From Escherichia coli O157:H7 (GTDB taxonomy: Bacteria > Pseudomonadota > Gammaproteobacteria > Enterobacterales > Enterobacteriaceae): 64,000 bases of DNA. The stretch lies in the NCBI RefSeq assembly GCF_013167455.1, contig NZ_CP038328.1; one strand, given 5' to 3'. Position 1 is the stretch's first letter; the number at the start of each line of letters is the position of its first letter. The position numbers were made by a program. Positions 9,001 through 12,000 of the stretch are shown one piece after another.

Positions 9001-12000
9001 CTTATTTAATGTTTCTTTTACTATCCCCAGGTAATACTTCCCTGTATCATTAAGAAAAATGCGTTTTTTAGAGTGTGAAAATAACGGAGTACGTAAAAAT
9101 TCCTCCAGCGCACTTACTTGTCTGAATACTGCACTTTGGGTTAACGCTAACTCCTCTGCCGCTCTGGTATAACTTTCATGACGTGCGACGACCTCAAAAG
9201 TCACCAGCAGTTCCGTTTTAGGTATTTTCCCTCGCATAATGCCGTCCCTTAAAAATAGTTTAAACCATCAAAAATACATTACTTATTACGAAGTAATGGT
9301 AACCAAAGCAGCAATAAATAATTTATAAGAATCATGATTGACATTTATAAACCAGTAAGGCTGGCGTGACAAATATCTTAATCAGATAATAATAATCCGA
9401 AAAGCACAGCGCCTTTCGAATTATCCGGAATCACATTAAGTGAAAATTATTAAATTGATATCATTTATCATATCTGTGGATATTATGATAAACAATCAAC
9501 AAAGATTTTATTTTTGATTTATAGCATATCCCTCTAAGAATTTTTGCGATGCTGCAATATCCGGGGTAAAGACCCGATCCTGGCTGACAAATGGCACGAC
9601 TTGACGAAAAGCGGTGAACATCGCTTTTGTTGATTTACTTAACGCTACGGTCAAACGCTGGGAAGCCAGTGCATCAGGTAACGATTCGAAATTCGCCGTC
9701 GTTCTTATTCGTGGCTTGCGGTCGGTTGCGGCAATCCACAGTGGCTGTGGTCATGCAGTCAAGCCTGCAGTCAGATTTCGACCGTGGTTAACCGTTTAAG
9801 GCATAAAAAAGGCCATCATACGATGGCCAACCATGTCGAAACCGACAGCCCTTCGCCATTCCTGTAGAGGGAAGCGGCGAGGGCTATTTCTTATTACAGA
9901 TATTTATTTCAGAACAGTTTTCAGTGCTTCACCGATATCCGCCAGGCTGCGAACGGTTTTCACGCCTGCGGCTTCCAGAGCAGCGAATTTCTCATCCGCA
10001 GTCCCTTTCCCACCGGCAATGATGGCACCCGCGTGGCCCATACGTTTGCCTTTCGGCGCAGTCACACCAGCGATGTAACCCACAACTGGCTTGGTAACGT
10101 GCTCTTTGATGTACGCAGCTGCTTCTTCTTCAGCGCTACCGCCGATCTCACCGATCATCACGATCGCTTCGGTCTGCGGATCTTTTTCGAACATTTCGAG
10201 AATGTCGATAAAGTTAGAGCCAGGGATCGGGTCACCGCCGATACCGACACAGGTCGACTGACCGAAACCGTAATCCGTGGTCTGTTTAACCGCTTCATAG
10301 GTCAGTGTACCGGAACGGGAAACGATACCCACTTTACCCGGTTTGTGAATGTGACCAGGCTGAATACCGATTTTGCATTCACCCGGAGTGATAACGCCTG
10401 GGCAGTTCGGGCCGATCATACGAACGCCTGCTTCATCCAGCTTCACTTTCACGGTCAGCATATCCAGCGTCGGGATGCCTTCAGTGATGGTGATAATCAG
10501 TTTGATGCCTGCGTCGATGGCTTCCAGAATGGAGTCTTTGCAGAACGGTGCTGGTACGTAGATAACAGAAGCGGTAGCGCCAGTAGCAGCAACAGCTTCA
10601 CGCACGGTGTTGAACACCGGCAGGCCGAGGTGGGTAGTACCGCCTTTACCTGGGGTTACGCCGCCAACCATTTTAGTGCCGTATGCAATGGCCTGTTCTG
10701 AGTGGAAAGTCCCCTGGCTACCGGTAAAGCCCTGGCAGATAACCTTGGTGTTTTTATCAATTAAAATGGACATTATTTCCCCTCCACTGCGGCAACAACC
10801 TGCTGAGCTGCATCCGTCAGACCTTTTGCTGCAATAATATTCAGGCCGCTGTCAGCCAGTTTCTTCGCGCCGAGTTCGGCGTTGTTACCTTCCAGACGTA
10901 CCACGACCGGTACGTTAACACCCACTTCCGCTACCGCACCGATGATACCGTCAGCGATCAGGTCGCAACGAACGATACCGCCGAAGATGTTAACCAGAAC
11001 GGCTTTCACTTTGTCGTCAGAGAGGATGATTTTGAACGCTTCGGTTACACGTTCTTTGGTTGCGCCGCCGCCAACGTCCAGGAAGTTAGCCGGTTCGCCG
11101 CCGTGCAGTTTAACGATGTCCATCGTACCCATCGCCAGGCCTGCGCCGTTAACCATACAACCGATGTTACCGTCCAGCGCAACGTAGTTCAGTTCCCACT
11201 GTGCAGCCTGTGCTTCACGCGGATCTTCCTGCGACTGGTCACGCATTTCGCGCAGATCAGGCTGGCGGAACAGGGCGTTGCCATCAGCGCCCAGTTTGCC
11301 GTCGAGGCAAATCAGATCGCCCTGTTTGGTGATGACCAGCGGGTTGATTTCGATCAGCGCCAGGTCGCGCTCCAGGAAAATGGTCGCCAGGCCCATGAAG
11401 ATTTTGGTGAACTGCTGAACCAGTTTACCTTCCAGACCCAGTTTGAACGCCAGCTCGCGTCCCTGATACGGCATCGGGCCAGTCAGCGGATCAAGCGCAA
11501 CTTTGTGGATCAGGTGCGGAGTTTCTTCCGCCACTTTTTCGATTTCCACGCCGCCTTCGGTGGAGGCCATAAAGACCACGCGACGTGAACTACGGTCTAC
11601 AACGGCACCGAGATACAGCTCTTTAGCGATATCGGTCGCTGCTTCAACCAGAATCTGGTTAACCGGTTGGCCATTGGCATCTGTTTGATACGTTACCAGA
11701 CGCTTGCCCAGCCAGTTTTCTGCAAAAGCACGGATGTCTTCTTTGCTGTTTACAACTTTCACACCGCCCGCTTTACCGCGGCCACCAGCGTGAACCTGAC
11801 ATTTCACTACCCACGGACCGGCACCGATTTTTGAAGCGGCTTCTTCTGCTTCGCGCGGAGTAGTACAGGCATAACCCACCGGTGCTGGTAAGCCATAGCG
11901 GGCAAACAGTTGTTTTGCCTGATATTCATGTAAGTTCATGTGTTCTGTCCATCCTTCAGTAATCGTTATCTTTTAAACCGTAGACCGACACCCTATCCAC

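What the first reader, a model, noticed from the sequence alone, without database searches (positions are those of the whole stretch)
9508..9750. Orphan 3' gene fragment at the island / core boundary
An 80-codon open frame with no start codon, ending ...SQKFLEGYAINQK, lies between the lysR promoter and the sucD 3'UTR terminator. It may be a relic of the gene displaced by the island insertion, or of an integration-related gene, and so marks the likely junction.
Basis: seen in the sequence. Interest (0 to 1): 0.3.

Follow-up and report, generated by a model that had tools for sequence, protein, structure and literature searches.

The report
Dead remnants of lyase and rtcB genes
The open frame is a non-functional deletion scar in E. 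coli O157:H7: two stitched pieces of the 3' part of a histidine-ammonia-lyase-family gene, running on into the antisense of an rtcB remnant, left when about 9.6 kb of a histidine-utilisation (hut) cluster was lost; it is ordinary.

Summary
In detail: 9508-9750(-) is an 80-codon stop-to-stop frame ending ...SQKFLEGYAINQK, lying between lysR and the sucD terminator. An open frame of that length is not unusual here. What makes it real is homology.

Compared with E. coli IAI39, the frame is a mosaic:
- 9508-9645 is the last 45 codons plus stop of a 556-aa HAL/PAL/TAL-family lyase.
- 9646-9701 is lyase codons about 377-395, joined by an in-frame 348-nt deletion.
- A 9,078-nt deletion follows. It removed the lyase 5' part, hutG, hutI, hutD, a permease, hutU and most of rtcB.
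- 9705-9761 and 9764-9806 are rtcB fragments on the opposite (+) strand.

About 838 of 5,426 complete E. coli genomes carry the same scar, and 145 keep the intact cluster. It is unrelated to K-12 mngR or to integration genes.

But the genes were lost by deletion from a larger accessory segment, not displaced by an island insertion.

Side note: the parent lyase lacks the MIO motif, appears to have a signal peptide, and is closest to ergothionase.

The parts
9508..9750 (-).
   Evidence: Translation, ORF list and mosaic alignment to IAI39.
9508..9645 (-). Relic piece 1: stop codon plus the last 45 codons (aa 512-556) of a HAL/PAL/TAL-family lyase (IAI39 WP_012602238.1), in the authentic frame.
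   Evidence: Colinear with L005 12019-12156. 40/46 aa identical. 20 nt differences, in 10 synonymous and 5 nonsynonymous codons. Weak NCBIfam hits to the C-terminal 453-497/505 of histidine ammonia-lyase profiles.
9646..9701 (-). Relic piece 2: internal lyase fragment (about aa 377-395, TANFESLP.ALA.QRLTV), joined to piece 1 by an in-frame 348-nt (116-codon) deletion at a 5-nt microhomology (AACGC, 9641-9645).
   Evidence: Matches L005 12500-12560 at 87%. Offsets 2511 and 2859 differ by 348 nt. 18/20 aa identical.
9702..9704 (.). Junction (3 unmatched nt) of the 9,078-nt deletion that removed the lyase 5' two-thirds, hutG, hutI, hutD, the NCS1-type permease, hutU and the rtcB 5' three-quarters.
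   Evidence: Left flank matches L005 12560 and right flank L005 21642. Gene content of the deleted span comes from the IAI39 annotation.
9705..9761 (+). Relic piece 3: internal rtcB fragment (aa 376-393, YSWLAVGCGNPQWLWSCS) on the + strand.
Evidence: 91% identical to L005 21642-21698 and L003 7769-7825. tblastn E 3e-12.
9764..9806 (+). Relic piece 4: rtcB 3' end (PAVRFRPWL...), following a 173-nt deletion. An extra C at about 9792 shifts the frame, giving a stop at 9797-9799. The original stop would lie at 9804-9806, inside the A-run of the sucD terminator.
   Evidence: 95% identical to L005 21874 onward. tblastn 10/12. All 4 differences are synonymous. The + strand ORF 9614-9799 ends ...PAVRFRPWLTV.
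9811..9828 (-). sucD 3'UTR terminator hairpin (T-run at 9801-9810 on the minus strand). Sequence shared with K-12 starts at about 9797.
   Evidence: Terminator scan, K-12 match from query position 558 = window 9797, and the alignment.
9238..9507 (.). lysR-lyase intergenic region, which belongs to the same divergent haplotype as the relics (38/270 differences from IAI39).

Best explanation
The interval 9508-9806 is a non-functional deletion scar. An ancestor of the O157:H7-type locus carried, between the lysR end of the methylaspartate (glutamate-fermentation) island and the sucD terminator, a block reading lyase-hutG-hutI-hutD-permease-hutU (minus strand) followed by a convergent rtcB (plus strand). 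Three deletions, measured against IAI39, removed 348 nt (in frame, within the lyase gene), 9,078 nt (lyase 5' part through rtcB 5' part) and 173 nt (within rtcB). What remains is 64 lyase codons in two pieces and 32 rtcB codons in two pieces. Because the first deletion is in frame and the antisense of the rtcB piece happens to be stop-free for 16 codons, the minus strand reads as an 80-codon open frame. It has no promoter of its own operon, no start codon at its 5' end and no ribosome-binding site, and it does nothing. Shown: the homology, the breakpoints, the strands and the distribution across genomes. Inferred: the direction of change (deletion from an intact ancestor) and the lack of expression.
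For: The window is 100% identical to O157:H7. The four-segment colinear mosaic against IAI39 has exact breakpoints, and the same result is obtained against three other intact strains. Protein-level matches: lyase 40/46 and 18/20, rtcB 17/18 and 10/12. Intact clusters sit at the same site, flanked by the same lysR and sucD or by lysR and mngB. Differences between the relic and intact alleles fall on third codon positions of the lyase (-) and rtcB (+) frames: 26 of 38, binomial p = 1e-5, with 24 synonymous against 9 nonsynonymous codons. This identifies the true coding strands and shows the sequence was once under purifying selection. The identical scar occurs in 835-838 of 5,426 complete genomes, and 145 have the intact lyase. 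PGAP leaves it unannotated in most genomes. Where the upstream TGA is TGG, PGAP calls an 84-aa 'hypothetical protein' from a TTG. Erosion continues in strain MMC-J-0078, which has lost lysR's 5' end and lyase piece 1. E. whittamii has a different, independent scar of the same cluster at the same site.
Against: No intact allele closely matching the relic was found. All intact E. coli alleles are 87-93% identical to it, so the deletion sizes and junction microhomologies are inferred from a diverged reference and could differ by a few nt in the true parent. Expression was not tested. An in-frame deletion and a persisting open frame could in principle reflect selection, but the chance of an in-frame deletion is 1/3, and the 5' boundary varies between strains.
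Confidence: 0.93

Rival explanations
1. One reading: the frame is the remnant of the core gene (K-12 mngR) that an island insertion displaced.
For: K-12 has the mngR 3' end abutting the same sucD terminator, and O157 lacks mngRAB entirely.
Against: tblastn of MngR against 9240-9800 finds nothing at E<=10, and blastn finds only chance 10-16-nt matches. The fragment matches a HAL-family lyase and rtcB instead. Strain RM14723 carries mngRAB and the lyase-hut-rtcB block side by side, so they are independent modules.
Confidence: 0.01
2. One reading: it is the remnant of an integration-related gene (integrase or recombinase) marking an att junction.
For: It lies near the boundary of strain-specific DNA.
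Against: Its homologues are a lyase and an RNA ligase family protein. No integrase or tRNA is annotated in the sucD-cydA interval. The two island-end hypothetical proteins have no Pfam domain.
Confidence: 0.01
3. It is a real small gene: the 84-aa 'hypothetical protein' WP_001309348.1 annotated in some RefSeq genomes, a domesticated lyase C-terminus.
For: PGAP annotates it in some strains. The internal deletion is in frame. The sequence is at least 99% conserved among 806 genomes.
Against: In O157 a TGA removes the annotated TTG start and leaves no start in the first 32 codons. The N-terminal part is antisense rtcB. There is no Pfam hit. Most genomes leave it unannotated. The at-least-99% identity matches the background within these lineages. 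One strain has deleted part of it.
Confidence: 0.03
4. It is a random open frame with no ancestry.
For: 80-codon frames are common: 227 in the window against about 151 in shuffles. The 5' 16 codons are indeed open by chance only.
Against: Highly significant protein and DNA homology for 9508-9701, with synteny in strains carrying the intact cluster.
Confidence: 0.01

Closest known systems
E. coli IAI39 HAL/PAL/TAL family ammonia-lyase WP_012602238.1 (556 aa; L005 12019-13689)
   Same: The relic's 64 lyase codons align to aa 377-395 and 512-556 at 87-90% aa identity, in the same position relative to lysR and with the same stop codon context.
   Different: The relic retains only 12% of the gene, lacks the N-terminus and the catalytic core, and is 11-13% divergent at the DNA level from every intact allele found.
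E. coli RtcB family protein WP_000546469.1 / WP_077516975.1 (465 aa; IAI39, MS1718)
   Same: Window 9705-9761 and 9764-9806 match aa 376-393 and about 452-465 on the + strand, ending at the same sucD terminator.
   Different: About 93% of the gene is missing. There is a 173-nt internal deletion and a 1-nt insertion.
RefSeq hypothetical protein WP_001309348.1 (84 aa) and the NCBI 64-aa 'histidine ammonia-lyase' fragment (P0004)
   Same: These are ORF calls on the same relic in other strains, 96-99% identical.
   Different: In O157 the TGG codon is TGA, so the TTG start used for the 84-aa call lies outside the frame.
MIO-less trimethylammonia-lyases: Treponema denticola ergothionase (PDB 6s7j); Shewanella periplasmic histidine-betaine and ergothioneine lyases (bioRxiv 10.1101/2025.08.13.670108; 10.64898/2026.04.22.720169)
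   Same: This applies to the parent gene, not the relic. Its best solved-structure match is 6s7j (E 1.3e-83, against 5.5e-49 for HutH). The Ala-Ser-Gly that forms MIO is replaced by Ala-Ala (GSIGAADI), as in ergothionase (SIGEGDI). It has a signal-peptide-like N-terminus like the Shewanella enzymes, and is about 55% identical to Shewanella homologues.
   Different: The Lys384 that binds the ergothioneine thiolate aligns to His/Ile in the E. coli protein (my count on the alignment). The genomic partners are HutU/I/G/D plus a permease rather than a urocanate reductase. Activity is untested.
K-12 mngR (GntR/UTRA repressor), the gene that abuts sucD in K-12
   Same: It occupies the equivalent position next to the sucD terminator.
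   Different: No sequence similarity to the fragment.

Membership tests
Pseudogene relic / deletion scar | Significant homology to an intact gene found at the syntenic position in related genomes | tested here: met
   Lyase and rtcB pieces are colinear with IAI39, FDAARGOS_1268, RM14723 and MS1718 between lysR and sucD.
Pseudogene relic / deletion scar | Truncated or interrupted relative to the intact gene, and lacking its own start | tested here: met
   64 of 556 lyase codons and 32 of 465 rtcB codons remain. Deletions are 348, 9,078 and 173 nt. No start codon occurs in the first 32 codons.
Pseudogene relic / deletion scar | Not expressed as a functional product | not testable with these tools
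   No transcript or proteome data are available. The only evidence is the absence of an SD sequence and start codon, and inconsistent annotation.
Aromatic amino acid lyase family (Pfam PF00221) | Domain match above the gathering threshold | tested here: not met
   The 80-aa translation hits no Pfam family, and has only weak NCBIfam hits (E 5e-4) to the C-terminal 45 positions of HAL profiles. The intact parent scores 414 bits.
Canonical histidine ammonia-lyase HutH (TIGR01225), tested on the parent gene | Score above the equivalog cut-off, and an Ala-Ser-Gly MIO motif | tested here: not met
   278.9 bits against a cut-off of 539. The MIO position reads GSIG-AA-DI.
MIO-less trimethylammonia-lyases (ergothionase / histidine-betaine lyase), tested on the parent gene | HAL-family fold without Ala-Ser-Gly, with closest similarity to characterised ergothionase | tested here: met
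   Best PDB hit is 6s7j at E 1.3e-83, and ASG is absent.
MIO-less trimethylammonia-lyases (ergothionase subtype), tested on the parent gene | Lys equivalent to Td_ETL Lys384 for thiolate binding | tested here: not met
   The aligned residues are H437/I438 (hand count on the alignment; a numbering offset of +/-1 is possible, and neither residue is Lys).
MIO-less trimethylammonia-lyases, tested on the parent gene | Release of trimethylamine from a histidine betaine substrate | not testable with these tools
   This needs an enzyme assay.
RtcB RNA ligase family (PF01139) | Intact domain | tested here: not met
   Only aa 376-393 and about 452-465 equivalents remain, and they are frameshifted. The intact IAI39 protein scores 318 bits.
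mngR (GntR/UTRA) remnant | Sequence similarity to MngR or mngR | tested here: not met
   No tblastn hit at E<=10, and blastn gives only chance matches.
Integration module (integrase / att site) | Recombinase homology or a tRNA/att feature at the junction | tested here: not met
   The homologues are a lyase and rtcB. No integrase or tRNA is annotated between cydA and sucD, and the two island-end hypothetical proteins have no Pfam hit.

The most novel reading that the evidence does not exclude
The scar may record that the O157-type 'glutamate fermentation island' is the surviving half of a larger catabolic island. In the intact form (about 2.7% of complete E. coli genomes), a periplasmic, MIO-less trimethylammonia-lyase would convert a histidine betaine (a hercynine- or ergothioneine-type substrate) to urocanate plus trimethylamine. 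An NCS1 permease and HutU/I/G would convert the urocanate to glutamate, and the adjacent methylaspartate pathway would ferment the glutamate. That intact lyase would be an E. coli member of the ergothionase family. A 2026 paper says no such homologue is known in E. coli annotations (PMC13405746), which leaves Wolff's 1962 'ergothionase from E. coli' without a gene.
Probability: 0.3. Interest if true: 0.5.

Novelty: already known. Interest (0 to 1): 0.12.

Why it matters
For the window itself it matters little. It corrects an annotation ambiguity: the 84-aa 'hypothetical protein' and 64-aa 'histidine ammonia-lyase' calls in some genomes are ORF calls on a dead mosaic. It also fixes the real boundary with K-12-type sequence at about 9797-9806. 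More broadly, it shows that the sucD-cydA interval is a multi-state variable segment. At least five configurations were seen: mngRAB only; island plus scar; island plus hut plus rtcB; island plus hut plus rtcB plus mngRAB; and a TPR-protein gene. It also shows that O157's methylaspartate island was once physically linked to a hut-type pathway that yields glutamate. The side observation that the parent lyase belongs to the ergothionase-like, MIO-less, probably periplasmic group could matter for trimethylamine production by gut E. coli, but that gene is not present in this window.

Tried and rejected
- **mngR origin:** tblastn and blastn found nothing. Rejected.
- **Structured RNA in 9200-10000:** the Rfam E-value search found only a chance RsaOG hit (22.5 bits against a gathering score of 50, E 0.53). 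Rejected.
- **Promoter and terminator scan:** counts were at the shuffle expectation except for the sucD terminator. The + strand hairpin at 9607-9628 is probably chance.
- **Search for the intact donor of the divergent relic allele:**
  - The genome-contig scan with a degenerate back-translation of VFTPDIAASQKFLEGYA found only an IAI39-like MAG and E. whittamii.
  - The 85%-identical homologue P0014 (Logan contig, different context) is no closer to the relic.
  - All three intact E. coli allele classes (100%, 97% and 95% identical to IAI39) are equally distant from the relic.
- **Search for intermediate deletion states:** megablast gave only the full scar plus seven partial matches. One of these was examined and is a further deletion.
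- **Literature:** nothing was found on hut genes or this relic in E. coli. Kronen and Berg 2015 (PMC4682846) describe the island but not the relic. Wolff 1962 is not held in the library.
- **In-situ neutral decay as the cause of the 12-14% divergence:** rejected. Differences are mostly synonymous, and third-position divergence is 8 times that of flanking genes.

Full report
**Observation.** Window 9508-9750 on the minus strand is an 80-codon stop-to-stop frame. It ends ...SQKFLEGYAINQK-TAA and is closed upstream by TGA at 9751-9753. The first ATG, GTG or TTG in the frame is a TTG at 9654 (48-aa ORF). The frame lies between lysR (8332-9237, -) and sucD (9904-10773, -), whose terminator hairpin is at 9811-9828. 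An 80-codon open frame is not in itself remarkable. The window contains 227 such frames, against about 151 in shuffled sequence.

**Where the window comes from.** The interval 9240-9905 is 100% identical to E. coli O157:H7 chromosomes. To its left lies the known methylaspartate, or glutamate-fermentation, island: glmS, glmL, mutE, mal, an atuA-like gene, DUF4387, gltP-like, fumD, cobO and lysR (described in PMC4682846). This island fills the whole sucD-cydA interval in O157, and mngRAB is absent. K-12 shares sequence only from about 9797 rightwards, which is the terminator and sucD. There mngR abuts the terminator.

**What the fragment is.** A DNA search of 9490-9704 against 5,426 complete E. 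coli genomes hit about 140 genomes at 80-90% identity. In those the match falls, in two pieces, inside an annotated 'HAL/PAL/TAL family ammonia-lyase'. In IAI39 the locus reads methylaspartate island, lysR(-), lyase(-), hutG(-), hutI(-), hutD(-), cytosine-permease-family transporter(-), hutU(-), rtcB(+), sucD(-). BLAST of the window against this locus gives a four-segment colinear mosaic:

| Window | IAI39 locus (L005) | Content |
|---|---|---|
| 9100-9645 | 11611-12156 | lysR 5' end, intergenic region, lyase stop plus last 45 codons |
| 9641-9701 | 12500-12560 | lyase aa about 377-395 |
| 9705-9761 | 21642-21698 | rtcB aa 376-393, + strand |
| 9764-9950 | 21874-22060 | rtcB 3' end, terminator, sucD 3' end |

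The offsets imply deletions of 348 nt, 9,078 nt and 173 nt.
- The 348-nt deletion removes 116 codons in frame. Its junction lies in a 5-nt AACGC microhomology.
- The 9,078-nt deletion leaves 3 unmatched nt at its junction.
- The 173-nt deletion leaves 2 unmatched nt at its junction.

At the protein level the frame matches the IAI39 lyase at 40/46 (E 2e-24) and 18/20 (E 5e-8). The + strand matches RtcB at YSWLAVGCGNPQWLWSCS and PAVRFRPWL. Codons 17-80 are genuine lyase frame, in two pieces. Codons 1-16 (PQPLWIAATDRKPRIR) are the antisense of an rtcB remnant.

**Which strand is real.** There are 38 nucleotide differences between the relic and IAI39 within the four pieces. Of these, 26 fall on third codon positions of the lyase (-) and rtcB (+) frames (binomial p = 1e-5). 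Codon changes are 24 synonymous against 9 nonsynonymous. Both genes were therefore under purifying selection in their own frames while this divergence accumulated.

**Distribution.**
- The same scar, at least 80% covered and mostly at least 99% identical, is in 835-838 of 5,426 complete genomes. These include O157:H7, O55:H7 and O145 from many hosts.
- 145 genomes carry the full-length lyase, in three allele classes 100%, 97% and 95% identical to IAI39.
- The rest lack both, as in K-12.
- Strain RM14723 has the order sucD-mngR-mngA-mngB-rtcB-hutU...lyase-lysR-island. The mngRAB and lyase-hut-rtcB modules are therefore independent.
- An O170:H18 strain has only a TPR-protein gene between sucD and cydA.
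- Strain MMC-J-0078 has eroded further, losing lysR's 5' end and lyase piece 1.
- E. whittamii carries a different, independent scar at the same site: 315 nt of the lyase 3' end, a hutU piece and the rtcB 3' end.

**An unexplained detail.** The block from about 9229 to 9800 is 11-14% divergent from every intact allele found. Divergence is 28% at third positions. The adjacent island genes differ between O157 and IAI39 by 1.4% overall and 3.5% at third positions, and lysR has only 8 differences in 906 nt. The break is sharp at the lysR start codon. Together with the synonymous bias, this indicates that the relic descends from a deep allele of the cluster that was not sampled intact. It does not indicate in-situ decay. 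A scan of species-representative genomes and a protein search did not find the donor.

**Function.** None is proposed. The operon's promoters and the 5' two-thirds of the lyase gene are gone, and the frame has no start codon or Shine-Dalgarno sequence at its 5' end. PGAP leaves it unannotated in most genomes. It calls an 84-aa hypothetical protein only where the upstream TGA is TGG. There is no Pfam domain and no Rfam family. Expression could not be tested.

Partly supported. It is a real orphan 3' fragment close to the boundary. It is not mngR and not integration-related. It was not displaced by island insertion. It is what remains after deletion of an accessory lyase-hut-rtcB block that in other strains lies between the same island and sucD. 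The boundary with K-12-type sequence is at about 9797-9806, at the end of the rtcB remnant, and not at the frame itself.

**Side observation on the parent gene (outside the window).** The intact lyase is not a canonical HutH.
- It scores 279 bits against the TIGR01225 cut-off of 539.
- It has a signal-peptide-like N-terminus, MKGLIRRVTVTVVLWSVCSIAMA|K (read).
- It lacks the Ala-Ser-Gly that forms the MIO cofactor, reading GSIG-AA-DI.
- Its best solved relative is Treponema denticola ergothionase 6s7j (E 1.3e-83, against 5.5e-49 for HutH).
- It is about 55% identical to Shewanella homologues. Periplasmic members of that group were recently shown to be histidine-betaine or ergothioneine trimethylammonia-lyases.
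- The Lys384 needed for ergothioneine thiolate binding aligns to His/Ile. This count was made by hand on the alignment.

A non-thiolated betaine substrate therefore seems more likely, but this is inference. PMC13405746 states that no ergothionase homologue is known in E. coli annotations. The intact gene in 145 complete genomes is such a homologue. This is flagged as a lead, not a finding about the window.

**Verdict.** This is an ordinary gene remnant whose pieces are already partly named in public annotation. Interest is low (0.12). Confidence in the deletion-scar explanation is 0.93.

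Noticed in passing
L005 12019-13689 (IAI39; outside the window; the relic is at window 9508-9701): The intact parent lyase (WP_012602238.1) has a signal-peptide-like N-terminus and lacks the Ala-Ser-Gly MIO motif. 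It is closest to Treponema ergothionase (6s7j) and to Shewanella periplasmic trimethylammonia-lyases. A 2026 paper says E. coli has no known ergothionase homologue.
   Followed up: partly
window about 9229-9800: A sharp divergence block. The intergenic region and relics are 11-14% different from all intact alleles (28% at third positions), against 1.4% (3.5% at third positions) in flanking island genes. The break falls at the lysR start codon, and the donor allele was not found.
   Followed up: partly
L011 1-1100 (Escherichia whittamii NZ_JACSQI010000018.1): An independent, differently structured deletion scar of the same lyase-hut-rtcB cluster next to sucD: 315 nt of the lyase 3' end, about 134 nt of hutU, and the rtcB 3' end.
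   Followed up: partly
L009/L013 (RM14723), L012 (O170:H18), L006 (MMC-J-0078), L004 (K-12): The sucD-cydA interval exists in at least five configurations. These include one with both mngRAB and island-hut-rtcB, one with only a TPR-protein gene, and one where erosion has removed the lysR 5' end.
   Followed up: partly
window 11940-12032 (sucC-sucB intergenic): The length of the sucB(odhB)-sucC spacer varies between strains: 93 nt in O157 and IAI39, 184 nt in CNREC_004-43 and 274 nt in K-12 by annotation coordinates. This probably reflects repeat-element insertions.
   Followed up: no
window 9607-9628 (+): A terminator-like hairpin (AAAAGCGGTGAACATCGCTTTT plus a T-rich tail) lies inside the lyase relic, on the strand opposite to the lyase frame. 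It is probably chance.
   Followed up: no
L005 20518-21915 (IAI39 rtcB) and relic at window 9705-9806: The RtcB-family gene is a solitary 465-aa member scoring below the NCBIfam equivalog cut-offs (202 bits against 407). It is convergent with the hut genes, no rtcA or rtcR is annotated nearby, and its role is unknown.
   Followed up: no
/ summaries: One of about 843 relic matches is recorded on a replicon labelled as a plasmid. This may be a mis-assigned replicon or a chromosomal segment on a large plasmid.
   Followed up: no
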